A DNA stretch of 64,000 nt from a virus. Its lineage: Duplodnaviria; Heunggongvirae; Uroviricota; Caudoviricetes. Below, piece by piece: positions 5,104 to 59,794 of the stretch (position 1 is its first letter; each line of letters opens with the position of its first letter). The position numbers and the translations under genes were made by a program. The stretch lies in the IMG/VR virus record IMGVR_UViG_3300031413_000001; one strand, 5' to 3'. Under the pieces are notes generated by a model. The model ran no database searches. It was not told the origin of the DNA and was given only the letters and a program-made list of their open reading frames with translations.

Positions 5104-6279
5104 ATGACGAGCATCCCACACTTCGAAGACATGAGCGTCAAAGACATCCTGGATAGTCTTGACCTCAAGTGGATGGCCAGCGAAAAGCTGGACGGATCCT
5201 ATCTTCAAATCGGCCTAGATGATGCCGGACAATTCTACACACAACGAAAGGGCGGACAGCCCATCTATGACATCGAGGACTGGCCCGATGAACTGTGGTC
5301 TGCGACGTATCGTCGTGGACATGCGGTTGCCAGTTGTGTCATCGAAGCTCTTGTAACCGAGAATGCAATCTCTCCAGGAAACTGGCTGGGTGTTGAGCTC
5401 CTTGAGGGTGTTCAGCCCAACTCCATTCCCTACAAGGGAGAGATGACCAGCACCTATGATAGCATGGTCGTCACGCATACCAGCTGGTCGCCCAGCACGG
5501 CATTTTATTGCATTCTAGGCAATGACTTTTCCGTAAAGACGACCGCGCTGATAACGCGGATGATTGGCGCCACCGAGGCAGCTCAAATAGATGAACTTGC
5601 CAACTGGATGGTTCACATCAACAATTCACTTTCCATGGAGTGGATTCGTGAGCGCCTCTCAACCAGTGCCGATCAGGTAAAGCTGGTGCTAGATCACTGG
5701 CTGCCCGAGCCCAGCAACATTCGGGGTTTTAGCAAGCGGGAGATCCTCGAGACAAATCTGTCCCGGAAGCATCCCAACGCTGGTGATCGTAATTGGAATG
5801 AGCTCCGAAAGGAAATTGTCCAGGAACGCGCACGTCTCCGCCCGGTCTTCGATTCATGCGTTCTTCTATTCAAGGAAGCTGCTTACCGGGTCATAGTGAA
5901 CGAAAGTGACTCTATTATGGGCAGTGGATGCTATAAGGAAGGCGCAGTCGTAGCGACCCCCAGAGGGCTGTTCAAACTGGTGGACCGGGAAGCATTCTCA
6001 GCCATCAATGAGTTCACTCATCGGGTCAAGTATGCCATCGTGGGTGGAAGGCGTCCAGCACGTTCCTGCTTTTTGAGTCGCACCAAGGATTGGCCCAAAG
6101 AAAAGCGGCTAGCCAGACTTGAAAAATTACTGACAGGGTACCGCGCAATGCGTTATTCATTACATTACAACGGAATGTTGAACGGGAGAGCCATTCAACT
6201 CTCTTACAGCGGGGACCTTCATCGTAGGACTCTCGGAATGTTCTACGATACGAAGAAAAGGATTGAAGATGGGCGGTAA
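5104..6279 (+). CDS. hypothetical protein
   Basis: 391-aa ORF; its 3' end overlaps the next gene by 17 nt (coupled pair). Confidence 0.55.
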   Translation: MTSIPHFEDMSVKDILDSLDLKWMASEKLDGSYLQIGLDDAGQFYTQRKGGQPIYDIEDWPDELWSATYRRGHAVASCVIEALVTENAISPGNWLGVELLEGVQPNSIPYKGEMTSTYDSMVVTHTSWSPSTAFYCILGNDFSVKTTALITRMIGATEAAQIDELANWMVHINNSLSMEWIRERLSTSADQVKLVLDHWLPEPSNIRGFSKREILETNLSRKHPNAGDRNWNELRKEIVQERARLRPVFDSCVLLFKEAAYRVIVNESDSIMGSGCYKEGAVVATPRGLFKLVDREAFSAINEFTHRVKYAIVGGRRPARSCFLSRTKDWPKEKRLARLEKLLTGYRAMRYSLHYNGMLNGRAIQLSYSGDLHRRTLGMFYDTKKRIEDGR

Positions 6280-7159
6280 GGCTTTCACAGATACGCAACG
6301 TATTGCTCGTGAGGACATCTACGGCACTCTGACTTGGTTGGAGCGCCACTGGCCCGATTACATTCTAAATGACGGTAAGCCTCTGAGCAAAGTCATGCTG
6401 GGATCGGCTGGTAAGAACGAGACGTCTGGTGATATTGATCTGAACTTGAGCATTGATGTTTATGATCAGGCAAAAGTTGCCAATGACCTTATCGCCCTCT
6501 TGGGTGCCGATCACGTAAAGGCTCGTCCAGGCAACAACCAGATCTTCACATCCATTCCCATCAACGGAGATGCTGAGGCGCATGGTAGGGTCCAGGTGGA
6601 CTTTATGTTTGGTAACTTTGAGTGGCAGAAGTTCAGCTACTTTAGTGCTGGCAAGACTGACATGCTCCGCTGGGGCAATAGCAGTGCCAGCTACTTTAAG
6701 GGATTGTACAGAACGGAGATGATCAAGGCTATCACGGCCTATTGCTCCGACTGGGTATTGGAAGACAAGGGTGAGATCATCGCCCGCGTGGGTCCCACGT
6801 TCTTCCACGATCGGGGACTGCTCTGGCGTTATCGGCTTCGGCCAATGCGTCAGGATGGTACCGCGAGGGTCAAGGAATTCAAGGAACTCTCCAAGGAGGA
6901 ATTCTTGAAGGTTTACCCCAGCGCAGTTACGGCGCTAACTGACAAGATGGATGATCCCAAGAAGGTGGTTGAATACCTCTTCAACGGGCGTGGAAGTGTT
7001 GGTTCAGTGGACACGCTGGAAAGCATTGCCATGTATATGAATCGTGCCTTCGACAGTGATGCTCGAAGGACCATTTGTGCCATCTTTCTAGAGCGGCTAA
7101 ATAACCTGAAAGTTGAAGTCCCCATAAAGGATTTCAAGCACATTTACTTGCAGGTGTAA
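6263..7159 (+). CDS. putative nucleotidyltransferase (Pol-beta superfamily fold)
   Basis: Motif LGSAGKNETSGDIDLNL = hG[GS]x8D[IL]D. A later acidic residue lies in VQVDFMF. No further subfamily assignment possible by eye. Confidence 0.5.
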   Translation: MKMGGKAFTDTQRIAREDIYGTLTWLERHWPDYILNDGKPLSKVMLGSAGKNETSGDIDLNLSIDVYDQAKVANDLIALLGADHVKARPGNNQIFTSIPINGDAEAHGRVQVDFMFGNFEWQKFSYFSAGKTDMLRWGNSSASYFKGLYRTEMIKAITAYCSDWVLEDKGEIIARVGPTFFHDRGLLWRYRLRPMRQDGTARVKEFKELSKEEFLKVYPSAVTALTDKMDDPKKVVEYLFNGRGSVGSVDTLESIAMYMNRAFDSDARRTICAIFLERLNNLKVEVPIKDFKHIYLQV

Positions 7160-26033: not shown

Positions 26034-26301
26034 GCCATGCGTTCGTATGGGAGACCGCTGCACCGGCCATGGTGATGCTCCTCCACGTCCCAACGTGCAG
26101 GGAAGCCCCAACGTCTTCATCAATAGCAAGCCAGCACACCGTCAGGGTGATATGTGGGCCGTTCACAAAAACCATCCCAGCAAACTTGCCAGTGGCTCGA
26201 GCACCGTGTTCGTCAATGGCAAGGGCCAGGGCCGTGTGGGAGACCCAGTGTTGTGTGGATCCCGATGCGCCCAAGGTAGCCCAAATGTTTTTGCAGGATA
26301 G
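26026..26301 (+). CDS. PAAR-repeat protein (tail-spike tip, T4 gp5.4-like)
   Basis: 91 aa. Three PAAR-like repeats: GSPNVFINSKPAHRQGD, GSSTVFVNGKGQGRVGD, GSPNVFAG. Confidence 0.7.
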   Translation: MGKPCVRMGDRCTGHGDAPPRPNVQGSPNVFINSKPAHRQGDMWAVHKNHPSKLASGSSTVFVNGKGQGRVGDPVLCGSRCAQGSPNVFAG

Positions 26302-26303
26302 GC

Positions 26304-26332
26304 TTGACAACGAGTAAGCGGCCTACTAGATA
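26304..26332 (+). promoter_or_regulatory. sigma70-like promoter for the tmRNA gene
   Basis: TTGACA (26304-26309), a 17-nt spacer, then TAGATA (26327-26332). Predicted transcription start about 26339. Confidence 0.5.
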
Positions 26333-26339
26333 AGAGATG

Positions 26340-26750
26340 TTGTTGAAGACCAAGACTTAATAGCAAGTAGCGGACCCGGGGGCAGTACCCGGCAGATCCA
26401 CCATAACTGCGCGGCGCTGCCCTGGAAGCTAGCCGCTGCCCTCGAGTAGGGCGGTTATGATGGGTCTGAACCAGGATCGACGTGCGAGCGAACGGTTACG
26501 AGAAGATTGAGCTTCGGCTCATGAAGCGATGACAGGGTGGCTCCTTTAAAGGCCAAAGCATGTAAATGCAAACGACAACACCGTTGTCGAGGCACGTCTG
26601 GCCGCGTAAGCAGCCAGACGAGGTAGGATTGCTTCGGTAGTTCTATCGCGTCTCTTAAATCCCTAGGGGCTCAACTCCCTAGGTGAGGGTATGGCTCCAC
26701 CCGGTAACAGAACGGGCCACCTTTCCCATACAGATTGCATAATTACTAAG
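26340..26750 (+). ncRNA. ssrA: tmRNA (ssrA), apparently circularly permuted two-piece form
   Basis: Tag reading frame 26568-26609: GCA AAC GAC AAC ACC GTT GTC GAG GCA CGT CTG GCC GCG TAA = ANDNTVVEARLAA*. The 5' tRNA-like strand GGGUCUG (26462-26468) is followed by a GGAUCGACG box homologous to E. coli GGAUUCGACGG. The complementary 3' strand CAGAUCC-A-CCA (26393-26403) lies UPSTREAM and is preceded by a T-arm-like hairpin CCGGG-ggcagua-CCCGG (26376-26392). The predicted acceptor stem has a G3:U70 wobble pair, the AlaRS identity element. 3' boundary of the coding piece not determined. Confidence 0.6.
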
Positions 26751-26860
26751 AGACCAGTAATTATAGCTCGCCATATCTCGGTGTCGTAGGGAGCCTGAAA
26801 TACCGCGTGACAGTTAGCCAATTTGGTGCTAGCGGGGTCCGCGCAATACAGGAGTTCTCA

Positions 26861-28567
26861 ATGACACAGACAGATACCCGCCACCACATAACGGTGCAAG
26901 GGTTACTTGTCTGTGGCGTGGGGGATGAGGGTAACGTGGATAAAGCAATCAAATCTGATATTAATATCAAGATGCTTACCGACCTTGCGCCAACCATCAT
27001 TTGGACGCGGGACGCTTCGGGAAAGCTGACATATCTAAACAATTTTTGGTTTGAATTCACGGGCTGTGAATACACATTGATCGATGCTATCCTGTGGAAG
27101 GAGTCCATTCATCCCGATGACATGGATGACCTCCGGGAAAAGCTCAACGAAAGCATGGCGCGTGGCGAGCCATACGAGGCCGAGACGCGCATCAAGCGCC
27201 ATGACGGCGAGTACCGATGGTTTCGCATCGCAACCCGTGCCGTCAAGGATGAAGAAAACAATGTCATGCAGTGGCTGGGTGTTGCTTCCCCCATTCATGA
27301 ACTAAAAATCGCCCAAGAACGCGCCGACGTGGCGCATGATGAATTGGAGCGCATGGTAAAAGAACGCACCCGAGCTCTCGAGGACAGTCAACATCAGGTC
27401 TTGGAAGAGATCAATGCTCGACAGAAAATGGAAGACGCGCTTCGTCAGGCACAGAAGATGGAGTCAGTGGGTCAGCTGACTGGTGGAATTGCACACGATT
27501 TCAATAACATGCTGACGGTTATCATTGGCAACTTGGAGTTGCTGAAGATGAGCGCTCCCAATCTTGGTGACAATCCAGTTGCCAAGCGTATGGACAAGAA
27601 CGTCAACATGGCCATTGAGGCCGCGCTCAAGGCGGAAAAGCTGACGAGCCAGTTGCTGGCATTCTCCCGCAAGGCACGACTCCACCCCGAACGTCTTGAT
27701 GTCAACAAGGTCATCTTGGGCGTAAAGGAAATGGTCGACCGCGCAGTTGGTATCGCGATCACTTGTGAGATCGATCTACAAGACGATGTGTGGCTTTGCT
27801 TGAGCGACAAGACCCAGCTGGAAAGCGCGATCATCAATCTCTCGATCAATGCGCGGGACGCCATGCTGCCCAAAGGCGGTACACTTCGCATCTTCTCGCA
27901 GAACAAGACGATCGGCGATCTCCGCTACGTTAGTGTGGGTGTCAGGGATACTGGCACTGGCATTCCTCCAGAGATCTTGGAAAAGGTCTTTGAGCCATTC
28001 TTCACAACCAAAGATGTGGGCAAGGGAAGCGGTCTTGGACTGTCAATGGTTCACGGCTTCTGCCAGCAAAGCAATGGACGGGTGTTCATTGAAAGCAAGA
28101 TCGGTGAAGGCACCACTGTTGAGATGATCTTTCCCTACACGGCTGGGGAGAGCATTGACAAGGTCCAGGCCGACGAGGACTTCAACTACGACGAGAACAA
28201 GCGCAGCATCCTCGTGGTCGATGATGAGCCCGCGGTTCGTGAGCTGGCCTGTCAGCTACTGACTGATCTGGGCTACAATGTTGTCAGTGCCGAGAATGGA
28301 ACACAGGCAATTGAGTTCTTGGGCGATGACGAGATTCCCATCGATCTGCTCTTCACCGATGTGGTAATGCCCGGTGGTGTTGATGGCTTCCAGGTTGCCA
28401 AGTATGCACAAAGCGTCCGGCCAGGAATGCCCATTATCTTCACCACCGGTCACGCGGAAATCGCGCTCAACGAGTTGAAAAAGGATCTGAGCCAAAAGCT
28501 CAAGGTTATTGGAAAGCCCTACAGGCTCAATGAGTTAAGCCAGACGATTGCCCAAGAGCTTGCTTGA
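26861..28567 (+). CDS. hybrid sensor histidine kinase (PAS/PAC - HisKA - HATPase_c - receiver)
   Basis: AGGAG precedes the ATG at 26861. PAS/PAC domain ([23 protein letters not shown]...[17 protein letters not shown]). H-box [21 protein letters not shown]1, G2 boxes ([25 protein letters not shown]). C-terminal receiver domain ([12 protein letters not shown]...[11 protein letters not shown]...KPY). Confidence 0.85.
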
Positions 28568-30492: not shown

Positions 30493-31146
30493 ATGGACAA
30501 CATCACTGACTTCCTCGTAGCAGGACCCAATACCAGCTTTCTGGTAGCGGGTTGCGTCGTCGCAGCCGTTCTCATTCTCGAGATCGTTCTGCTAATCGTT
30601 GGTCACTCAACGATGATGATGAACGCAGATGTTGACATGACGCTCGACCTCGATGGAAATGGTATCCCCGATTATCTCGAGGGTCACGGTCATCTTGGCG
30701 ACTGGTTCAACCCCGGTCACATTCCCGTAACAATGTTCCTCGTGCTGTTCTGCGGACTACTAGCCCTCTTGGGTTACAGTGGTCAGTGGATCTATCTTGG
30801 ACAAGCGGGACAATTGGCTCCCGCCCTTCTCGCGGTTCCCATCACACTTGTTCCCACACTAGCATTCTCCCGCTGGTTTTCAGTTGGTCTGGCACGTATC
30901 ATCCCACAAGATGAAACAAACGCCATATCAGTTGAAAGTCTCGCGGGTGATGTTGGTGTGTTGACGACTGGGCCCGTACAGGGACGTGATGATTTTGGCA
31001 TGGCACGATTCGCCGACAAGTATGGGGTTGATCATGCCCTAGTAGTCGGTAGTGTTGATGACACGATTATTGAAACGGGCTCAAGCGTTGTGTTAGTTGG
31101 TCCACACCCTGAGAAGAGCATCGCTTTTATCATTCGCAAGATCTGA
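30493..31146 (+). CDS. NfeD/YqiJ-like membrane protein (partner of SPFH proteins)
   Basis: Multiple TM helices (VAGCVVAAVLILEIVLLIVG, VTMFLVLFCGLLALLG). C-terminal OB-fold-like segment GDVGVLTTGPVQGRDDFGMARF...GSSVVLVG. Immediately upstream of the flotillin gene, matching the E. coli yqiJ-yqiK arrangement. Confidence 0.55.
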   Translation: MDNITDFLVAGPNTSFLVAGCVVAAVLILEIVLLIVGHSTMMMNADVDMTLDLDGNGIPDYLEGHGHLGDWFNPGHIPVTMFLVLFCGLLALLGYSGQWIYLGQAGQLAPALLAVPITLVPTLAFSRWFSVGLARIIPQDETNAISVESLAGDVGVLTTGPVQGRDDFGMARFADKYGVDHALVVGSVDDTIIETGSSVVLVGPHPEKSIAFIIRKI

Positions 31147-31170
31147 TACCCAGATCAACAAGGAGACCCA

Positions 31171-32908
31171 AGTGGGCAATCTTCCCTTTATCGGACTAAT
31201 CGTGGGAGCGGTGATCGTAATCATCCTCCTGTTGGGCTTGCTGGCAGTCAAATTCTACCAGCGCGCAAGCAAGGAACAGGCTTTCGTTCGTACTGGTAAG
31301 GGCGGCCAGAAGGTCGTCAAGGACGGCGGCTCGGTTGTATGGCCGATCATTCAGGAAACCATCCCCATCAATATGCAGACGCTTCGTCTGACTGTTGAGC
31401 GGAAGGCCAAGGACTCGCTGATCACCAAGGATCGTCTCCGCGTTGACGTGAAGGCAGAGTTCTACGTTCGGGTTGCACCGGATGAGCAGAGCATTGCAGC
31501 CGCGGCACAGACGCTGGGCCGACGCACCCTTCAGCCGCAGCTTCTCGCAGAGCTGATTGAAGGCAAGTTCGTCGACGTCCTTCGCGCAGTGGCAGCAGGC
31601 ATGGACATGCAGGACCTTCACACTCAGCGGGCTGACTTCGTGAAGACGGTCAAGACCACTGCGGCAGAGGATCTCAAGGCCAACGGTCTGGAACTGGAGT
31701 CGGTGTCGCTGACCGGGTTGGACCAGACGTCCATCGAGCACTTCAACCCCAACAACGCCTTCGACGCAGAAGGTCTCGCCAAGCTGACCAACGTCACGGA
31801 GACGCGTCGCAAGGAGCGCAATGAAATCGAGCAGACCACGCGAGTGGCCATCGAGGAGCGCAACCTGTCGGCGACCAACCGAAGCCTGGAGCTCAAGCAG
31901 GAAGGCGAGTTCGCCCGCTTGCAGCAGGAGCAGAGCGTTGAAACGCGTTCGGCGGAGCAGGGTGCAAACCTGGCCAAGACCCGTGCTGATCGCCAGCGCG
32001 AGTCGGACATCGCAGCCATCGAGGCAGACCAGGCAACTGAAGCAGCACGGGTGAACAAGACCCGTACGATTCAGATTGCAGAAGCTGAAGCAGCTCGCGA
32101 TCTCGAACTGGCCGGCCAGGATCAGCGCATTCGCGTTGCTGCCAAGTCCCAGGAAGAGTCGGAAGCCCGTGCATCGGCCGATAAGGCACGTGCAATGGCC
32201 GTTGAGGCATCGGAAGCGGTCAAGACCGTGGAAGCAACTGCCCGAGCAGAGCGTGACCAGAAGGTTGCGGTCATTGCAGCAGAGACCGAGGCGCAGCGTG
32301 AGGCAGCTGGTATCAGCATCCGCGCGGAAGCTGAGTTCAAGGCAGCTGACAGCCAGGCAAAGGCTCGTGAGCGACTCATCGACGCCGATGCGAAGAAGTA
32401 CGAGGTTGAGGCCGAGGGTCAGCGCATGATCAACGAAGCAGCCAACACCATGTCGCCTGAGCAGGCAGCACTTCAGATCCGCTTGAAGCTTATCGAACAG
32501 CTTCCGCAGATCCTGGAGCAGATGGGCAAGCCCATCGAGAAGATTGACAGCTTCCGTGTCGTTCACATGAACGGCAGCATGGGCGGTGGTCACTCTTCGG
32601 GTTCGGTCGACGGTGAGACCACCGGCAACAGCGGCGGCAATCTGCCCACGCAGATGACCAACGCACTGCTGGACTATCGCTTGCAGGTTCCCATGGTCGA
32701 GGAAATGGCCAAGGAACTGGGCGTGGATATCTCGCGCGGCATGAACGGCATCGTGGACAGCATCGGCGGGGTCTCCAAGCCGGCCCCCAGTGCAACGCAG
32801 GCTACCAAGCCCGCCCCACGCGGTCACAAGACTGGTGATCCGGACATCATGACCGGGCTGGAGACGGAAAAGCTGCAGAAGCTTGCAGGCATTCACCCCG
32901 AGGGCTAA
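31171..32908 (+). CDS. flotillin-like SPFH/band-7 protein (YqiK-like) with long Ala/Glu/Arg coiled coil
   Basis: AAGGAG precedes the GTG at 31171. N-terminal TM helix, SPFH core (QTLRLTVERKAKDSLITKDRLRVDVKAEFYVRV). About 200 aa of EA/AR-rich coiled coil. Gly-rich C-terminal tail. Confidence 0.8.
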
Positions 32909-33030
32909 GTCCTCACTGATTGCTTGGGAGGGGCTGGACCAAAAGGTCTGGCCCCTTTTCTGTCTATTCTGTTGTAGACATGCGTGGAATTGGTGCTAGT
33001 AATGAGTCAGTGTTAAGCAAAAGGGATACG

Positions 33031-33690
33031 ATGAGCAGCAACATGGTCAGTAAGGTAGCAGCCGGCACCGGAGCGGCCTGCGTGTTCGTCGGCGGTCTCG
33101 CTGGCCTACCCTTTCCCTTCATTGGGGATCTTCTGGTCAGCACACCACTGGCGGCCGTGACGGGAATGGGCATCTGGTACTTTTGGCCAGGTCGTCGTCC
33201 AATCACCAAGGCAGAGGTCGAGCAGATCTTCGCCGATCAGGACAAGCTGAAGAACAGCAGCGGCGTTTCCAACAAGGAAGTCGTCGAGACCATCAAGTTG
33301 GTCTCCGACAAGCTGGATCGCATTCTGATGGAGGCCAGCAGCCTGAAGGGCCCCAATACGATCCGGCGCATCAAGCATCTGGATGCTGTTGGTCGGAAGA
33401 TCATCGAAGACTTCCGCCAGGATCCGTCGGACATCAAGCGCGCACAGAGCTGGATTCACAGTTATCTGGACCAGACGCTGGATTGCGTCAAGCAATACGC
33501 GCAGCTGAGCCGGAACGGTGCCCGCAGCATCGACGCGCAGCGGCAAATGGCGCAGTTCGACGACCTCTTGGACTTGCTGCATAGCAAGAGCCAGGAACTG
33601 CTCGACCATCTTCTCACCAACGACACCACCAACATGCAGGTAAACGTGGAAGTCTTCCGCGACATGCTCAACAACGAAGGGATCAAGTAA
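33031..33690 (+). CDS. XpaC-like membrane protein (5-bromo-4-chloroindolyl phosphate hydrolysis protein family, tentative)
   Basis: Two N-terminal TM helices (AAGTGAACVFVGGLAGLPFPFIGDLLV, LAAVTGMGIWYFW) followed by a helical soluble domain. Position immediately upstream of the TelA-like gene mirrors the Bacillus xpaC-yaaN pair. Start uncertain (33031 or 33040). Confidence 0.45.
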   Translation: MSSNMVSKVAAGTGAACVFVGGLAGLPFPFIGDLLVSTPLAAVTGMGIWYFWPGRRPITKAEVEQIFADQDKLKNSSGVSNKEVVETIKLVSDKLDRILMEASSLKGPNTIRRIKHLDAVGRKIIEDFRQDPSDIKRAQSWIHSYLDQTLDCVKQYAQLSRNGARSIDAQRQMAQFDDLLDLLHSKSQELLDHLLTNDTTNMQVNVEVFRDMLNNEGIK

Positions 33691-33692
33691 CC

Positions 33693-34856
33693 ATGGTAGA
33701 GACTGTTACGGCAACCGCAGTGGACACTTCCACGCTGATGCCAACCCCGGAACCGATCGGCAGCACGGCACTGGTAAGTCTCGCACCCGCGGGCACTGCA
33801 ATCCAGGTCAGCAAGGTGTCGCCGGAGCGCGCCAAGGAACTGGCGAAGAAGATCAACATTCGCGACACGCAGAGCATCATCGGCTTTGGCGTCGAAGCGC
33901 AGAAGAGCGTGTCGGCCGTTTCGGATCAGATGCTCGACGGCGTCCGCACCAAGGACACTGGCCCGGTCGGTGATTCGCTGAACCTGATGGTTCACGAGAT
34001 GCGCGGCCTGGACTTTGGTTCGCTGAGCCAGAAGCAGGGCTTCATCAGCAAGCTTCTCCGGAAGGCCAGCCGGGTCACGCTGTTCCTGGAGCAGTATGAG
34101 ACCGTGCAGAGCAAGATCAACAAGACGCAGGCCGTCCTGGAAGGTCACCGGGTCAACATGCTCCGCGGCGTGAAGATGCTCGATCTTCTCTACGTGAAGA
34201 CGCTGGAACTTCTCGGTTCGCTCGATGAGCAGGTCGCCGCAGTCCAGTACAAGCTGGAAGAAGTCAACACCATCGATATCCCGCAGGCCAATCAGAAGGC
34301 CCAGGAATCGCAGGACATGGCCGACACCCAGCTGGCCGCGGATCTGATTCAGGCGCGAGATGCACTGGAGCGCAAGCTGCATGATCTCCAGCTGACCCGT
34401 CAGATCACCATCCAGGCACTGCCCAGCATTCGCATCGTGCAGAGCAACGAGATTGGCCTCTCGGAGAAGATCCAGAGCCAGATCCTCAACGCACTGCCAC
34501 TGTGGAAGCGCAACATGGCACTGGCCATCGAAATGGCGAAGACGCAGAACGCCGCGAAGGCAACCAAGGCGGCTTCGGACTTCACCAACGAGCAGCTTCG
34601 TATGGGCAGCGACATGCTCCAGCAGAGCAATCTCGCAGTCCGCAAGGAAGTCGAGCGCGGCATCGTGGACGTGGACAGCGTCAAGTACGCCAACGACAAG
34701 CTGATCCAGACCATCGAGGACACGATCACCATCGCGCAGGAAGGCAAGAACATGCGCGCGGCGGCCGAGACCGAGTTGGCAGCGGCCGAGCAGCAGCTGA
34801 AGCAGACGCTGCTCAGCGCAGCGCAGCGCCAGGCAAACATGAAGGCAATCGCCTAA
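33693..34856 (+). CDS. TelA-like toxic-anion-resistance family protein
   Basis: 387 aa, all-helical. Regions GFGVEAQKSVSAVSDQMLDGVRTKDTGPVGDSLNLMVHEMRGLDF and QILNALPLWKRNMALAIEM are characteristic of TelA/YaaN/KlaA. Confidence 0.7.
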   Translation: MVETVTATAVDTSTLMPTPEPIGSTALVSLAPAGTAIQVSKVSPERAKELAKKINIRDTQSIIGFGVEAQKSVSAVSDQMLDGVRTKDTGPVGDSLNLMVHEMRGLDFGSLSQKQGFISKLLRKASRVTLFLEQYETVQSKINKTQAVLEGHRVNMLRGVKMLDLLYVKTLELLGSLDEQVAAVQYKLEEVNTIDIPQANQKAQESQDMADTQLAADLIQARDALERKLHDLQLTRQITIQALPSIRIVQSNEIGLSEKIQSQILNALPLWKRNMALAIEMAKTQNAAKATKAASDFTNEQLRMGSDMLQQSNLAVRKEVERGIVDVDSVKYANDKLIQTIEDTITIAQEGKNMRAAAETELAAAEQQLKQTLLSAAQRQANMKAIA

Positions 34857-39945: not shown

Positions 39946-41079
39946 ATGTTGGACAAGTTGATGACGGACGCGACGAAGAAGTTGAGCGAGGCTTTTGCCG
40001 AGGCCGGCTTCGAGATCCGCTTCGTCGGCGGCTGTGTCCGGGATGCCATCTTGGGTGTTGTGCCCAAGGATATCGACTTCACCACCGATGCAACGCCCGA
40101 CGAGATGAAGGACATCACGTTGGCCAACAGCTTTAAGTTCATGCCCACCGGGATCGATCATGGCACGGCGACCATCGCGGTCGATGGTGAGATGTTCGAG
40201 GTCACGACGTTGCGCGTGGATGCAGAGACGGATGGTCGTCATGCAACAGTGGTCTTCACGCGCAGCTTCGAGGTCGACGCAGAGCGCCGCGATTTGACCA
40301 TCAACGCAATGTCGATGGACATGGACGGCAATGTCTACGACTACTTCGGTGGTATGCAGGACTTGAAGGACAAGGTTGTCCGCTTTGTTGGTGTGCCGGA
40401 GATGCGCGTCCAAGAGGACTACTTGCGTATCTTGCGCTACTTTCGTTTTGCGGCACGGTTCGACAGCACGATGGACCAGGACACGTTGGACTTGTTCAGC
40501 GAGGGCGAGGTCTTGGACAAGTTGAACACCGTCTCGGTGGAGCGTTTCTGGCAGGAGATGCAGAAGTTGTTGGACCCGTCGATGCCGGCGCGCACTCGGG
40601 TTGTGGACGCAATCTTCCGCACTCGGGTCAACCGGTCGTTGGGGTTCTTCCGTTTCAACCCCGTCGAGGTAACGCGGAGCGATGATGCAGTGTCGGCTTT
40701 GGCCTCGTTGGTCTATGAGCAGGACATGACGCGATTCTTCGAGTTCTGGGCGTTGAGCTCGGCCGAGCAGAAGAAGATCGAATGGTTGGTGCGTAACCGC
40801 AGCACGCCATTGGACGAGCGGGTGGTCATGAACATGATGACGCGGAACAAGGCTCCGCGTGATTTTGTGGTCAGCTTGGCCGAGATGATGGGGGAGCCCA
40901 CGTTGGCCGAGTTCGCTCGGAACTACGTGGTGCCGACCTTCCCGGTAAAGGGGGACGACTTGATCGCCGCTGGGATGAAGCCGGGGCCCGACATGGGGCG
41001 TCGCTTGGAGCGCATGAAGGACGCATGGGCGTTCAGCAGCTTCAACAAGTCCAAGGACGAGTTGATGGAGGTTGAGTGA
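39946..41079 (+). CDS. tRNA nucleotidyltransferase (CCA-adding enzyme) / poly(A) polymerase family
   Basis: Head-domain motifs FVGGCVRDAILG...PKDIDFTT, RRDLTINAM and ED..RILRYFRFAARF. Confidence 0.8.
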   Translation: MLDKLMTDATKKLSEAFAEAGFEIRFVGGCVRDAILGVVPKDIDFTTDATPDEMKDITLANSFKFMPTGIDHGTATIAVDGEMFEVTTLRVDAETDGRHATVVFTRSFEVDAERRDLTINAMSMDMDGNVYDYFGGMQDLKDKVVRFVGVPEMRVQEDYLRILRYFRFAARFDSTMDQDTLDLFSEGEVLDKLNTVSVERFWQEMQKLLDPSMPARTRVVDAIFRTRVNRSLGFFRFNPVEVTRSDDAVSALASLVYEQDMTRFFEFWALSSAEQKKIEWLVRNRSTPLDERVVMNMMTRNKAPRDFVVSLAEMMGEPTLAEFARNYVVPTFPVKGDDLIAAGMKPGPDMGRRLERMKDAWAFSSFNKSKDELMEVE

Positions 41080-43200: not shown

Positions 43201-43995
43201 ATGGCAAAGTTTCAATCGACCAAGACCTACGGTACTGACCGTGGGCTCTCCTGCTGCTTTAGGCAGTGGAAGGCATCACATAGCCACTGTTCCACTCTTC
43301 ACGGCTACAGCTTGGGCTTCAAGTTCGTATTCGAGAGCGAGACGCTGGATAGCAGGAACTGGGCATTTGACTTCGGTGGTATGAAACCCATCAAGCAATA
43401 CCTGGACAGCATGTTTGACCACACGGTGTTGGTTGCTGAGGATGATCCCGCTCTGGAGTTCTTCAAGACCATGGCTGGCTATTCCACGATGCCTGAGCAC
43501 AATGGCACCAACGAGTCCATTGGCTACTTGAACCCCATTCCCCACGAGGAAGGTCGCATCTGTGCCCTTCGTATCGTGCCCGGCGTGGGTTGTGAGATGA
43601 CAGCCAAGATGGTCTTTGAGGAAGCCAGCAAGATGCTGGAGCAGATGAAGACTGGTGAGAACTCTCGCTATGAGATCAATCCAGACGTACGTCTAGTCTC
43701 CGTGGAATGCTTTGAGCACGGCTCCAACAGTGCGATCTATTATGGCGATGTTCCCAATCGTCAGGTCCATTATGTGGACGTTGAAGGCATTGATGAGTCC
43801 GACATTCAGTATTTCAAGGACCGGCTGGCTCAGGCAATCAAGCGTGGCGACAAGGTCACGTCTGAAAAGACTCAGCAATACTTGGACATTCTAGGTGATG
43901 GTGCTCCCAATCATCCATCGCGGATTGGGGACTTGAGCAAGTTCGAAGATGTGATCTACGACTTGCATAAGATTCCGCCCGTAGACGAAAAGTAA
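43201..43995 (+). CDS. 6-pyruvoyl-tetrahydropterin synthase/QueD-like (T-fold) protein with C-terminal extension
   Basis: N-terminal 120 aa carry the C-x(n)-HGH-x-Y/F motif (CSTLHGYSLGFKFVFES) and the DFGG segment of PTPS/QueD. The remaining about 140 aa are not recognised. Confidence 0.55.
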   Translation: MAKFQSTKTYGTDRGLSCCFRQWKASHSHCSTLHGYSLGFKFVFESETLDSRNWAFDFGGMKPIKQYLDSMFDHTVLVAEDDPALEFFKTMAGYSTMPEHNGTNESIGYLNPIPHEEGRICALRIVPGVGCEMTAKMVFEEASKMLEQMKTGENSRYEINPDVRLVSVECFEHGSNSAIYYGDVPNRQVHYVDVEGIDESDIQYFKDRLAQAIKRGDKVTSEKTQQYLDILGDGAPNHPSRIGDLSKFEDVIYDLHKIPPVDEK

Positions 43996-57952: not shown

Positions 57953-59206
57953 ATGAGTGAAAAGAAGAATCTGAGCTGCTCTTTTTGTGGTAAGAAGCAA
58001 GAAGCCGTTCAGAAGCTGATTGCTGGTCCGGATGTCTTTATCTGTAACGATTGTGTTCAGCTCTGTGCCGATATCCTAAAGGAAGACGACAACACGGCAA
58101 CCAAGATGCCGGTAAAGGATGGGGCCATTCCCAGCCCTCGTACCATTCGTGAGTTTCTCGATCAGTATGTGATCGGCCAGGAAGCTGCCAAGATGGTCAT
58201 GAGCGTGGCGGTCCACAACCATTACAAGCGGTTGGCCAATCCAGTGGTTGATGATGTTGAGCTCGAGAAGTCCAACATTCTCCTACTGGGCCCAACGGGC
58301 AGCGGTAAGACACTTATGGCAAAGAGCATTGCCAAGCTACTGGATGTTCCCTTTACTATCGCAGACGCCACCAGCCTAACTGAGGCGGGCTATGTGGGTG
58401 ACGATGTTGAAACCATCATCACTCGATTGCTGCAGGTTTGCGACAACGATGTGTCCAAGGCGGAACGCGGCATCATCTACCTCGACGAGGTGGACAAGAA
58501 GGCCAAGAAGAGTGAAGGCTCCAGCGTTAGCAGGGACGTATCGGGCGAAGGCGTTCAGCAGGCACTCCTGAAGATCATCGAAGGCTCAGAAGTTCGTGTT
58601 CCCGTACAGGGCAACCGAAAGCATCCCAACAGCGAGATGGTGGTTGTAAATACCAAGAACATCCTGTTTATCGTTGGTGGTGCATTCGTTGGTCTTGATG
58701 AGATCATTGGAAAGCGCCTCAACAAGGGCAAGGGCGGAATTGGCTTTGGTGCATCTGTTAAGTCGGACATTGACAAGGATGTATCCAGTGCCCTCTTGAG
58801 CCAGGTTGAGCCAGAGGATCTTACCAAGTATGGTCTGATTCCTGAAATGGTTGGCCGTCTCCCAGTTATCACACACTTGGAGGAGTTGGACCAGGACCAG
58901 TTGGTCAAGGTTCTCACTGAGCCCAAGAACGCGCTTATCAAGCAGTTTGAGAAGATCTTCCAGCTGGAAGATGTCAAGCTGGACTTTGACAAGGAAGCCC
59001 TTCGTGCCATTGCCAAGGACGCTATCACTCGGAAGACGGGTGCTCGTGGTCTGCGGTCCGTTATTGAAAAGCGGTTGATCCGCGTTCAATATGACCTCCC
59101 TGACCTTAAGGAAGCTGGAGCAACAGCTATCCGCGTGGGCAAGGATGTCATTGAAGGAAAGAGCGAGCCACTGGTGGTCTATGACCCCAAGGCAGCAAAC
59201 GAGTAA
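57953..59206 (+). CDS. clpX: ATP-dependent Clp protease ATP-binding subunit ClpX
   Basis: Zinc-binding CSFCGK...CNDC. Walker [16 protein letters not shown] pore loop. Walker [10 protein letters not shown]. Sensor/IGF region RVPVQG...; C-terminal SRGLR. Confidence 0.9.
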
Positions 59207-59272: not shown

Positions 59273-59794
59273 GTGAACTCTCAGTATGCGGTAAACGACC
59301 AAATTCGGGCAAGGGAGGTTCGCCTCATTGCCGACAACGGTGATCAGTTGGGCGTCATCCCAACCATTGAAGCGCGTCGTCGTGCAACAGTGGCCGGCTT
59401 GGACCTAGTTGCCATCAACATCAGCAATGGTGTTCCAATCTGTAAGATCCTCGACTACGGCAAGTTCAAGTATGAGCAGAGCCGGAAAGAGCGTGAGAAC
59501 GCAAAGAAGAACCGCGAGAGCCGGGTGGAGCTCAAGGAAATTCAGTTGCGGCCGACCACTGATAGCAATGACATTCAGATCAAGGCCAAGAGGGCGCAGG
59601 GCTTCCTGAATGATGGCGACAAGGTAAAGGTCGTGATGAAGTTCAAGGGTCGTGAGATCACCCACTTGGATGTTGGTGCCGACGTTATGGTCAGCTTTAT
59701 CAACGCCCTGACTGATTACAAGCTGGAACGCCCAATCAGTAGAAGTGAGCGCCAGTTGTTTGCCATCATTATGCCGGCTCCCAAAAAGGCATAA
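59273..59794 (+). CDS. infC: translation initiation factor IF-3
   Basis: GTG start. NDQIRAREVRLI, LDLVAI...PICKILDYGKFKYE, KEIQLRPTTDSNDIQIKAKRAQGFLNDGDKVKV...KFKGRE are the canonical IF3 N- and C-domain motifs. Confidence 0.85.
   Translation: MNSQYAVNDQIRAREVRLIADNGDQLGVIPTIEARRRATVAGLDLVAINISNGVPICKILDYGKFKYEQSRKERENAKKNRESRVELKEIQLRPTTDSNDIQIKAKRAQGFLNDGDKVKVVMKFKGREITHLDVGADVMVSFINALTDYKLERPISRSERQLFAIIMPAPKKA

What the first reader, a model, noticed from the sequence alone, without database searches (positions are those of the whole stretch)
26304..26760. Circularly permuted (two-piece) tmRNA gene with alpha-type tag ANDNTVVEARLAA, its own promoter, in a virus-like genome
The tag reading frame gca aac gac aac acc gtt gtc gag gca cgt ctg gcc gcg taa (26568-26609) is a textbook tmRNA resume-codon plus tag ending LAA. 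The 5' tRNA-like strand GGGUCUG followed by GGAUCGACG (26462-26476) matches the E. coli tmRNA 5' end. Its only good partner, CAGAUCC-A-CCA with an adjacent 5-bp T-arm-like hairpin, lies 60 nt UPSTREAM (26376-26403). The pairing gives G3:U70, the Ala identity element. Gene order acceptor-3'-piece then coding piece is the permuted layout known from alphaproteobacteria, some betaproteobacteria, cyanobacteria and mitochondria. The tag resembles Rhizobiales/Caulobacter tags (ANDN...EARLAA-like; established knowledge recalled from memory, not verified). A permuted tmRNA carried by a phage-like element would be unusual and hints at the host clade. The T-loop sequence (GGCAGUA) is non-canonical, which lowers confidence in the exact acceptor-piece boundaries.
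Basis: partly seen in the sequence, partly recalled or inferred. Interest (0 to 1): 0.7.

Follow-up and report, generated by a model that had tools for sequence, protein, structure and literature searches.

The report
Two-piece tmRNA gene in jumbo phage
The flagged stretch is a genuine, intact, circularly permuted (two-piece) ribosome-rescue RNA gene of the alphaproteobacterial type, carried by an uncultivated giant phage related to Sinorhizobium and Agrobacterium jumbo phages; it is real but belongs to a kind already reported in phages, including this phage group.

Summary
ARAGORN calls one permuted tmRNA at 26309-26700 with tag ANDNTVVEARLAA. Rfam scores it 90.2 bits on alpha_tmRNA (threshold 50) and 86.2 bits on tmRNA_permuted (threshold 47).

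- **Anatomy.** The gene runs promoter, acceptor piece ending in CCA, a 58-nt intervening hairpin, then the coding piece. G3:U70, discriminator A, the T-arm, helix P2, pseudoknot PK1 and a stop-codon hairpin are all present. The "odd" T-loop GGCAGUA is the alpha-type consensus.
- **Genome.** The window is a jumbo phage with primase, helicase, ribonucleotide reductase, topoisomerase II and virion proteins. Its nearest relatives are Sinorhizobium phage Phosso and Agrobacterium phage Atu_ph07.
- **Relatives.** Four distinct relatives carry the gene at the same place, after a PAAR gene. Helices are kept through compensatory changes: 12 pairs, with 0 of 500 shuffles reaching the observed values. Phosso's copy is not annotated in GenBank.
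- **Host hint.** Tag ends ANDN...EARLAA match the tag ANDNYAEARLAA of Rhizobium, Ensifer and allied genera (119 of 119 sampled genomes).
- **Novelty.** Phage-borne two-piece tmRNAs are already documented, and a related Sinorhizobium jumbo phage (AP-J-162) is reported to encode a tmRNA.

Verdict: a new member of a known kind, with interest about 0.25.

The parts
26303..26331 (+). Predicted sigma-70 type promoter: -35 CTTGAC (26303-26308), 17-nt spacer, -10 CTAGAT (26326-26331).
   Evidence: This is the only match (at most 1 mismatch) to CTTGAC-N17-CTATAT in the 64 kb on both strands; 0.09 expected. TTGACA/CTAkAT-like hexamers sit at the same place in L358, L035, L359 and Phosso. The stretch aligns to positions 1-39 of RF01849. 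The generic E. coli-type scan did not call it, because the -10 lacks T at position 6. Function is inferred, not shown.
26339..26403 (+). Acceptor (tRNA-like 3') piece, about 65 nt. It holds the 3' strands of helix P2 (GUUGUUG 26339-45, GACU 26354-57, GU 26367-68, GCG 26370-72). Then come T-arm 26376-26392, acceptor 3' strand CAGAUCC 26393-26399, discriminator A 26400 and encoded CCA 26401-26403.
   Evidence: RF04321 starts at 26339. All helices are paired and covary across five phages. The 5' end is inferred from promoter spacing and is not mapped.
26404..26461 (+). Intervening segment (58 nt), predicted to be removed from the precursor. Its ends pair (UAACUGC/GCGGUUA) and extend the acceptor stem into one long hairpin.
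   Evidence: The fold of 26391-26470 is -38.9 kcal/mol, z = -3.05. The same end-to-end pairing appears in L358/L035 (53 nt) and L359 (167 nt) despite different sequence. Excision is inferred from the known processing of two-piece tmRNAs.
26462..26721 (+). Coding (mRNA-like) piece, about 260 nt. In order:
- acceptor 5' strand GGGUCUG 26462-68;
- GGAUCGACG 26474-82;
- P2 5' strands (CGU 26481-83, GC 26484-85, GGUU 26494-97, CGAUGAC 26527-33);
- inserted UUCG hairpin 26508-21;
- PK1 (AGGG 26534-37 / CCUU 26543-46; UGGC 26538-41 / GCCA 26552-55);
- tag frame;
- structured 3' region ending ...AACAGAACGGGCCACC.
   Evidence: RF01849 covers 26300-26721. Helix table; covariation counts. The 3' end is taken from the model end and is not mapped.
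26568..26609 (+). Tag reading frame: resume codon GCA, 13 codons ANDNTVVEARLAA, stop TAA. The stop lies in the loop of hairpin P5 (CGUCUGGC 26595-26602 / GCCAGACG 26613-26620).
   Evidence: ARAGORN tag. Direct reading. P5 pairing.
26739..26764 (+). AT-rich inverted repeat (AUAAUUACU-8 nt-AGUAAUUAU) just after the gene. It may be a 3' boundary or processing hairpin, but there is no T-run.
   Evidence: Direct reading. It was not called as a terminator. Phosso, by contrast, has a canonical GC hairpin plus T-run after its tmRNA. Whether it belongs to the gene is uncertain.

Best explanation
**What it is.** This is a functional ssrA gene encoding a circularly permuted, two-piece tmRNA of the alphaproteobacterial type. 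It is carried in the genome of an uncultivated jumbo phage related to Sinorhizobium phage Phosso and Agrobacterium phage Atu_ph07.

**Proposed mechanism (inferred from how two-piece tmRNAs are known to work).**
1. Host RNA polymerase with sigma-70 transcribes one precursor from CTTGAC-N17-CTAGAT.
2. The precursor folds so that the acceptor strands pair across a 58-nt hairpin.
3. tRNA-processing enzymes cut at G26462 (RNase P-like cleavage) and trim to the encoded CCA at 26403. This removes the intervening segment.
4. The ~65-nt acceptor piece and the ~260-nt coding piece stay together through the acceptor stem and helix P2.
5. Host alanyl-tRNA synthetase charges the RNA through G3:U70 and discriminator A.
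6. With host SmpB and EF-Tu it enters stalled ribosomes. Translation resumes at GCA 26568 and appends (A)ANDNTVVEARLAA.
7. The LAA end sends the product to ClpXP-type proteolysis.

**Likely benefit.** The phage probably keeps ribosomes free and recycles amino acids while host mRNA is being destroyed.

**Shown versus inferred.** Shown here are the sequence, structure, conservation, covariation and genomic context. Inferred are transcription, processing, charging, tagging and the benefit to the phage.
For: - **Gene calls.** ARAGORN reports a permuted tmRNA with tag. RF01849 scores 90.2 bits and RF04321 86.2 bits, both well above their thresholds.
- **Identity elements.** A complete acceptor stem with G3:U70, discriminator A, encoded CCA, an alpha-type T-loop, PK1 12 nt before the resume codon, and a stop codon in a hairpin loop.
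- **Conservation.** The same gene sits directly after the DUF7217-like and PAAR genes in L356 (99.8% identical), L358, L035, L359 and Phosso.
- **Covariation.** 92.7% of cells are paired, and 12 pairs change on both sides. None of 500 shuffles reaches these values, and slid controls give 33-49% paired. Acceptor pair 4:69 is U:A, C:G or G:C, while G3:U70 never changes.
- **Promoter.** It is the unique host-type promoter match in the window and is conserved in relatives.
- **Precursor hairpin.** z = -3.05.
- **Phage context.**
- **SmpB.** None was found in the window. None was found in the Phosso or Atu_ph07 records using a Pfam-validated SmpB query. This points to dependence on host SmpB.
- **Related genes.** A phage ClpX homologue (57953-59206), an IF3 homologue and a CCA-adding enzyme lie in the same window.
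- **Literature.** S. meliloti tmRNA is processed into 82-nt and 214-nt pieces (PMC2873474). Huge phages are known to carry tmRNAs and translation genes (PMC7162821).
Against: - No expression, processing or charging data exist; everything functional is inferred.
- Only 64 kb of a probably ~470-kb genome was seen, so a phage SmpB elsewhere cannot be excluded.
- The covariation set has only five sequences, and the tested structure was drawn from these sequences.
- One relative (L035) has a Val (GTC) resume codon and a rearranged stretch before it. Not every copy may therefore be fully functional.
- Atu_ph07 has no tmRNA at the syntenic site, so the gene is dispensable for this phage group.
- No canonical terminator follows the gene.
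Confidence: 0.85

Rival explanations
1. The RNA is made but acts mainly as a competitor or re-router of host trans-translation rather than as a simple extra rescue factor. It might displace host tmRNA on SmpB, or add a phage-specific tag that is handled differently, for instance by the phage ClpX.
For: - The tag middle differs from the host-type tag: TVV against YA. It varies among relatives (ANDNTVEVALAA, ANDNVSTKVALAA), while only the ANDN and LAA ends are kept.
- The phage encodes its own ClpX.
- A CDS-less phage tmRNA-like RNA (mycobacteriophage DS6A) was reported to inhibit endogenous tmRNA (cited in PMC11915505).
- The RNA is only up to 64.5% identical to 112 sampled bacterial genes.
Against: - The tag frame is intact and ends in the canonical LAA degron.
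- All elements needed for normal function are conserved.
- ClpX is also present in Atu_ph07, which lacks the tmRNA at the syntenic site. The two genes are therefore not an obligate pair.
Confidence: 0.1
2. A decaying relic: a host ssrA gene picked up by chance and no longer functional.
For: - Atu_ph07 lacks the gene at the syntenic site.
- L035 shows a rearranged stretch before the tag and a non-Ala resume codon.
- Intervening segments have swollen to 167 and 410 nt in relatives.
Against: - The gene is retained at the same locus in five phages whose flanking protein is only 32-62% identical.
- Compensatory changes keep every core helix.
- The promoter, CCA, G3:U70 and tag frame are all intact.
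Confidence: 0.04
3. An attP-like fragment of host ssrA used for site-specific integration, or a standard one-piece tmRNA whose 3' end lies downstream.
For: Temperate phages and genomic islands often integrate at tmRNA genes and carry their 3' ends (PMC12595487, PMC9004378).
Against: - Both pieces, the tag and a promoter are present, not just a 3' fragment.
- No integrase was seen among the proteins scanned, and the relatives are lytic jumbo phages.
- Among overlapping models of the same clan, alpha_tmRNA was the one retained, and it matched across its full length.
- No T-arm followed by CCA lies downstream of the coding piece.
Confidence: 0.01

Closest known systems
Alphaproteobacterial two-piece tmRNA (Rfam RF01849), e.g. 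Sinorhizobium meliloti SsrA
   Same: - Gene order: promoter, acceptor piece with CCA, intervening segment, coding piece.
- T-loop GGCRGUA, the GGAUCGACG motif, PK1, and resume codon GCA AAC GAC AAC.
- Tag ends ANDN...EARLAA.
- Host-type CTTGAC-N17-CTATAT promoter (PMC2873474).
   Different: - It is carried by a phage.
- The tag is one residue longer, with TVV in place of YA.
- It is only up to 64.5% identical to 112 sampled bacterial genes over the tRNA-like and coding parts.
- An extra UUCG hairpin is inserted in P2.
- The predicted pieces are about 65 and 260 nt, against 82 and 214 nt in S. meliloti.
- The intervening segment is 58 nt, against a bacterial median of 34 nt.
tmRNA of Sinorhizobium jumbo phages (AP-J-162 as published; Phosso as found here)
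   Same: - Same phage group: topoisomerase II is 69.5% identical to Phosso's.
- Same locus after the PAAR gene, and same permuted alpha type.
- AP-J-162 is reported with one tmRNA (PMC11242549).
   Different: - Phosso's copy has a 410-nt intervening segment, tag ANDNVSTKVALAA, a reduced 3' region and a canonical terminator. It is missed by ARAGORN and is not annotated.
Two-piece tmRNAs of marine phages (OM43 phage Melnitz, pelagimyophages)
   Same: A permuted alpha-type ssrA sits behind an early-type promoter in a lytic myophage. The proposed roles are ribosome maintenance or amino-acid recycling (PMC9004378).
   Different: - No riboswitch was found here; the Rfam gathering scan of the window gave only the tmRNA.
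- The phage lineage is different, and the inferred host is of the Rhizobium/Ensifer kind rather than marine.

Membership tests
tmRNA (ssrA) | tRNA-like domain: 7-bp acceptor stem with G3:U70, discriminator A, 3' CCA and a T-arm | tested here: met
   GGGUCUG pairs with CAGAUCC in all seven positions, with G3:U70, followed by A and CCA. The T-arm is 5 bp with a 7-nt loop. G3:U70 is invariant in five phages.
tmRNA (ssrA) | Internal tag reading frame with a resume codon, a stop codon and a hydrophobic C-terminal degron | tested here: met
   GCA...TAA at 26568-26609 encodes ANDNTVVEARLAA.
tmRNA (ssrA) | Pseudoknot PK1 shortly upstream of the resume codon | tested here: met
   AGGG/CCUU interleaved with UGGC/GCCA, ending 12 nt before GCA. 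Both stems are present, with changed sequence, in L358, L359 and Phosso. The stems were identified by hand, and stem 2 is poorly aligned in A2.
tmRNA (ssrA) | Covariance-model score above the curated threshold | tested here: met
   RF01849 scores 90.2 bits against a threshold of 50. RF04321 scores 86.2 against 47.
tmRNA (ssrA) | Alanylation, SmpB binding and trans-translation activity | not testable with these tools
   This needs biochemistry or infected-cell proteomics.
Permuted two-piece tmRNA, alpha type | Gene order: acceptor piece (ending in CCA) upstream of the coding piece, separated by an intervening segment | tested here: met
   CCA ends at 26403 and the 5' acceptor strand starts at 26462, leaving 58 nt between them. 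ARAGORN flags the gene tmRNA*.
Permuted two-piece tmRNA, alpha type | Mature RNA consists of two processed pieces | not testable with these tools
   Only the precursor hairpin geometry is shown.
Permuted two-piece tmRNA, alpha type | Alpha-specific sequence features: T-loop GGCRGUA, AGGAUCGACG, the 3' AACAGAA element | tested here: met
   All align with high posterior probability to the RF01849 consensus.
Jumbo phages of the Atu_ph07 / Phosso group (Polybotosvirus and relatives) | Shared core proteins and gene order | tested here: inconclusive
   - Topoisomerase II large subunit is 69.5% identical to Phosso's and 58.7% to Atu_ph07's.
- ClpX is 64.8% and 57.1% identical.
- The DUF7217-like protein matches only these phages in the GenBank phage set.
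- No nucleotide-level match was found, and no whole-genome comparison was possible from 64 kb.

The most novel reading that the evidence does not exclude
This lineage of jumbo phages, whose cultured relatives infect Sinorhizobium and Agrobacterium, may maintain a private quality-control circuit. Its parts would be a diverged tmRNA with a lineage-specific tag core, transcribed from the only host-consensus promoter in the region. It would work with the phage's own ClpX (and IF3) to re-route which proteins are tagged and destroyed during infection. That would go beyond simply topping up host ribosome rescue.
Probability: 0.1. Interest if true: 0.55.

Novelty: new member of a known kind. Interest (0 to 1): 0.25.

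Why it matters
- **Annotation.** The gene is a clean, well-supported feature of an uncultivated jumbo phage.
- **Host prediction.** The alpha-type gene, the Rhizobium/Ensifer-like tag ends and a rhizobial sigma-70 promoter all agree with the hosts of the nearest cultured phages.
- **Clade biology.** tmRNA is a conserved, syntenic trait of one branch of these jumbo phages. It sits alongside ClpX, IF3 and a CCA-adding enzyme, which fits the known tendency of huge phages to carry translation-related genes.
- **Practical by-product.** Sinorhizobium phage Phosso has a tmRNA that is not annotated and that ARAGORN misses because of a 410-nt intervening segment. Counts of phage tmRNAs based on ARAGORN alone are therefore underestimates.
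- **Limit.** None of this changes what is understood about tmRNA or phage biology.

Tried and rejected
- **Nucleotide search of the tmRNA region against GenBank phages.** No match at the default threshold. At E up to 10, only a 28-nt hit in Phosso proved meaningful.
- **Megablast of 24 kb of the window.** No relatives found. The first attempt was one base too long.
- **Downstream histidine kinase as a synteny anchor.** It hit only unrelated records.
- **PAAR protein as an anchor.** It is too widespread and did not bring up Atu_ph07 among the listed rows. The DUF7217-like protein worked instead.
- **First IMG/VR pattern.** It was too loose.
- **Global MAFFT alignment of window against Phosso.** It misplaced the acceptor piece because of the 410-nt insert. 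I therefore replaced the intervening segments with a GAAA linker for the structural alignment.
- **Minimum-free-energy co-folding.** It did not reproduce the pseudoknotted architecture and was used only for the precursor hairpin.
- **Generic promoter scan.** It did not call the promoter; the rhizobial consensus did.
- **Rfam's placement of the outermost P2 helix in the window.** It carried non-standard pairs. A 7-bp alternative, GUUGUUG/CGAUGAC around an inserted hairpin, fits better and covaries.
- **Paper on jumbo-phage transduction of islands at tmRNA.** It concerns the host gene as an integration site and is not relevant here.
- **Phosso intervening segment.** A six-frame look showed no long open frame: the longest stop-free stretch is 87 codons, start codons were not checked, and no homology search was done.
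- **Not done.** The whole Atu_ph07 genome was not scanned.

Full report

Yes.
- The tag frame GCA AAC GAC AAC ACC GTT GTC GAG GCA CGT CTG GCC GCG TAA is at 26568-26609.
- GGGUCUG is at 26462-26468, followed by AACC and GGAUCGACG.
- Upstream lies CCGGG-GGCAGUA-CCCGG (26376-26392), then CAGAUCC-A-CCA (26393-26403).

ARAGORN finds exactly one RNA gene in the 64 kb. It is a permuted tmRNA at 26309-26700 with tag ANDNTVVEARLAA. Rfam gives alpha_tmRNA (RF01849) 90.2 bits against a threshold of 50, E = 3.8e-23, across the whole model at 26300-26721. It gives tmRNA_permuted (RF04321) 86.2 bits against 47. The alpha_tmRNA consensus T-loop is GGCgGUA, so this loop is a hallmark of the class.

**2. Anatomy**

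No ORF of 60 aa or more lies between 26366 and 26761 on either strand. The PAAR gene ends at 26301. The next gene is a hybrid histidine kinase with an AGGAG-spaced ATG at 26862. From the Rfam structure lines, manual pairing and comparison with relatives, the gene reads as follows.
- **Promoter.** CTTGAC-N17-CTAGAT at 26303-26331.
- **Acceptor piece, about 26339-26403.** It carries the 3' strands of helix P2, the T-arm, the 3' acceptor strand, discriminator A and an encoded CCA.
- **Intervening segment, 26404-26461 (58 nt).** Its ends pair (UAACUGC/GCGGUUA) and prolong the acceptor stem. The fold is -38.9 kcal/mol, z = -3.05.
- **Coding piece, 26462 to about 26721.** In order it holds:
  - the 5' acceptor strand;
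  - the GGAUCGACG motif;
  - the 5' strands of P2;
  - an inserted UUCG-capped hairpin (26508-26521);
  - a pseudoknot PK1 (26534-26555) ending 12 nt before the resume codon;
  - the tag frame, with its stop codon in the loop of an 8-bp hairpin (26595-26620);
  - a structured 3' region ending in the alpha-type AACAGAACGGGCC element.

Rfam's placement of the outermost P2 helix carried non-standard pairs. A 7-bp pairing of the very 5' end (GUUGUUG, 26339-45) with CGAUGAC (26527-33) fits better and covaries.

**3. The promoter claim**

The generic E. coli-type scan does not call a promoter, because the -10 hexamer lacks a T at position 6. The published S. meliloti sigma-70 consensus is CTTGAC-N17-CTATAT (PMC2873474). 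Searching the whole window on both strands with at most one mismatch gives a single hit at 26303-26331. The expected number is 0.09. The same element (TTGACA plus CTATAC, CTATAT or GTAAAT) precedes the gene in all relatives. It also aligns to the 5' flank built into RF01849. The promoter is therefore well supported as a prediction, though transcription itself is not shown. No canonical terminator follows; only an AT-rich inverted repeat lies at 26739-26764. Phosso has a GC hairpin plus T-run after its gene.

**4. What genome is this?**

The window encodes the following phage and accessory genes:
- a primase, a DnaB-type helicase and virion structural proteins;
- class I ribonucleotide reductase;
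- a PAAR protein, a PAS-histidine kinase-receiver protein and a YqiJ/flotillin pair;
- TelA and an HNH endonuclease;
- a CCA-adding enzyme and QueD;
- both subunits of T4-type topoisomerase II;
- a ClpX homologue and an IF3 homologue.

The topoisomerase large subunit is 69.5% identical to that of Sinorhizobium phage Phosso (469 kb). It is 58.7% identical to that of Agrobacterium phage Atu_ph07 (490 kb). The next hits are Rak2-like jumbo phages at about 46-47%. There is no nucleotide-level match in the GenBank phage set. An IMG/VR contig (IMGVR_UViG_3300031088_000033, 44 kb) is 99.8% identical over the tmRNA. The window is therefore an uncultivated jumbo phage of the Phosso/Atu_ph07 group.

**5. 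Relatives carry the same gene at the same place**

A faint 28-nt blastn hit led to an unannotated 750-bp gap after the PAAR gene of Phosso. Rfam scores that gap 113 bits (RF04321) and 108 bits (RF01849). The tag is ANDNVSTKVALAA and the intervening segment is 410 nt. ARAGORN finds nothing there. Using the DUF7217-like neighbour as anchor, IMG/VR gave three more distinct relatives with the gene just downstream:

| Relative | Identity to the window's tmRNA | Tag | Intervening segment |
|---|---|---|---|
| L358 | 78% | Same as window | 53 nt |
| L035 | 74% | Read as VNDNTVVEARLAA | 53 nt |
| L359 | About 74-81% over three blastn segments | ANDNTVEVALAA | 167 nt |

In Atu_ph07 the homologous neighbours are followed by only 200 nt. 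No tmRNA is detected in that 10.8-kb stretch. This agrees with the published count of zero for that phage (PMC11242549).

**6. Is the structure under selection?**

I replaced the intervening segments with a GAAA linker and aligned the five distinct sequences. Against my hand-drawn structure of 49 pairs, 92.7% of cells are standard pairs and 12 pairs change on both sides. None of 500 shuffles reaches the observed values on any measure. Sliding the partners by 1-3 columns drops pairing to 33-49%.

Specific examples:
- Acceptor pair 4:69 is U:A, C:G or G:C, while G3:U70 is invariant.
- The outer T-arm pair is C:G, G:C or U:A.
- P2 next to the T-arm is GCG/CGU or UGG/CCA.
- The inserted hairpin is UGAGC/GCUCA or CCAG/CUGG.

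Caveats: there are only five sequences, the structure was derived from them, and PK1 stem 2 is misaligned by one column in MAFFT.

**7. Origin and host**

Nearly all are from Rhizobium, Ensifer, Shinella, Mesorhizobium, Phyllobacterium, Hoeflea, Aurantimonas, Bartonella and Parvibaculaceae. ARAGORN reads the tag ANDNYAEARLAA in all 119 loci where it calls a gene. The window's tag keeps both ends and has TVV in place of YA.

I compared the tRNA-like 3' part plus the coding part up to the stop codon. On this measure the window is 73-86% identical to L358, L035 and L359. It is at most 64.5% identical (median 59%) to 112 of these bacterial genes. This is an old, vertically kept phage gene rather than a recent capture from any sampled host. 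Bacterial intervening segments have a median of 34 nt (19-75). Viral ones have a median of 77 nt (5-410). The alpha type, the tag, the rhizobial promoter and the hosts of the cultured relatives all point to a host among Rhizobium, Ensifer and allied genera. This is an inference.

**8. How it most likely works**

The mechanism is inferred from established knowledge of two-piece tmRNAs. These include Caulobacter and S. meliloti, where 82-nt and 214-nt pieces were mapped (PMC2873474). The permuted form is described as cleaved by tRNA-processing enzymes (PMC11915505).
1. One precursor is transcribed.
2. The intervening hairpin is removed.
3. The two pieces are held together by the acceptor stem and P2.
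4. The RNA is charged with alanine and delivered to stalled ribosomes with SmpB.
5. The stalled product receives the tag (A)ANDNTVVEARLAA and is degraded through its LAA end.

A Pfam-validated SmpB query finds nothing in the window. It finds nothing in the Phosso or Atu_ph07 records. The phage RNA therefore presumably uses host SmpB. The phage does encode ClpX. ClpX is shared with Phosso and with Atu_ph07, which has no tmRNA at the syntenic site. The two genes are thus not an obligate pair.

**9. Comparison with what is known, and novelty**

- Permuted tmRNAs number 11,946 in the current database, which also lists 79 bacteriophage sequences (PMC11915505).
- Buchholz et al. found tmRNA genes in 402 of 18,146 phage genomes. 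Of the 133 unique ones, 53 were two-piece, mostly from marine or aquatic phages (PMC9004378).
- Huge phages are known to carry tmRNA, SmpB, IF3, CCA-adding enzymes and queuosine genes (PMC7162821).
- The Sinorhizobium jumbo phage AP-J-162, a relative of Atu_ph07, is reported with one tmRNA (PMC11242549).
- My two truncated IMG/VR scans alone gave 149 loci with ARAGORN-called permuted tmRNAs. Some sit on contigs of 244 and 308 kb.

The finding is therefore a correct identification of a new member of a known kind. The modest new points are these:
- the syntenic conservation with covariation in one branch of these jumbo phages;
- the unannotated Phosso gene, which ARAGORN misses;
- the fact that the gene owns the only host-consensus promoter in 64 kb.

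**10. Verdict**

- Observation: confirmed.
- Interpretation: supported, except for the claim of rarity.
- Confidence that this is a tmRNA gene: about 0.97.
- Confidence that it is a functional two-piece rescue RNA as described: about 0.85.
- Interest: 0.25.

Noticed in passing
window 57953-59206 (+): A phage-encoded ClpX homologue with a ClpX zinc finger, AAA_2 and the D2-small domain. It is 64.8% identical to Phosso's and 57.1% to Atu_ph07's (annotated as the Clp protease ATP-binding subunit). It could handle LAA-tagged proteins. No ClpP was seen among the proteins scanned.
   Followed up: partly
window 59273-59794 (+): A translation initiation factor IF3 homologue (IF3_N plus IF3_C) sits immediately after the ClpX gene. 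This is another translation-related gene, as described for huge phages.
   Followed up: no
window 39946-41079 (+) and 43201-43995 (+): A CCA-adding tRNA nucleotidyltransferase and a QueD-like 6-pyruvoyl-tetrahydropterin synthase. ARAGORN finds no tRNA genes in this 64 kb, although related phages carry 33-66.
   Followed up: no
window 26807-28567 (+), likely start ATG 26862: A hybrid sensor kinase (PAS, HisKA, HATPase_c, receiver) lies directly downstream of the tmRNA. It has no close counterpart in GenBank phages; the best hits are about 25-30% identical and sit in unrelated records.
   Followed up: partly
window 30493-34856 (+): A YqiJ/NfeD-like membrane protein, a flotillin (SPFH/Band 7) protein and a TelA-like toxic-anion-resistance protein lie in a row in a region of raised G+C (0.55-0.59). 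Phosso also has an SPFH protein near its tmRNA locus.
   Followed up: no
L001 (Phosso PV764938) 5490-6179; intervening segment 5599-6008: Phosso has a high-scoring permuted tmRNA (113 and 108 bits) that is not annotated in GenBank. ARAGORN misses it, presumably because of its 410-nt intervening segment. A six-frame look at that segment gave a longest stop-free stretch of 87 codons (start codons not checked); Rfam and ARAGORN find no RNA family or tRNA in it.
   Followed up: partly
L035 13955-14352 (IMGVR_UViG_3300017694_000020): This gene is nearly identical to L358's except for a rearranged, 14-nt-longer stretch before the tag. The change puts a GTC (Val) codon at the resume position and a UxU mismatch in P2. 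An alternative PK1 stem (UGGUU/GGCCA) remains possible. It is unclear whether this is a functional variant or an early stage of decay.
   Followed up: partly
L360 (Atu_ph07 NC_042013) 5904-6379: The syntenic spot in Atu_ph07 has only a 200-nt gap after the PAAR-sized gene and no tmRNA. A tRNA lies about 3 kb further on. The tmRNA is therefore not universal in this phage group. The rest of the Atu_ph07 genome was not scanned.
   Followed up: partly
window 26739-26764: An AT-rich 9-bp inverted repeat (ATAATTACT...AGTAATTAT) lies just after the tmRNA. A minus-strand promoter-like site overlaps it at 26787-26760. It has no T-run, and its role is unknown.
   Followed up: no
Rhodobacter phage RcRudolph OP009285 49361-49392: A 32-nt, 87.5% match to the T-arm and acceptor 3' strand of the window's tmRNA lies inside an annotated hypothetical protein. 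It may be an attP-type fragment of a host tmRNA gene.
   Followed up: no
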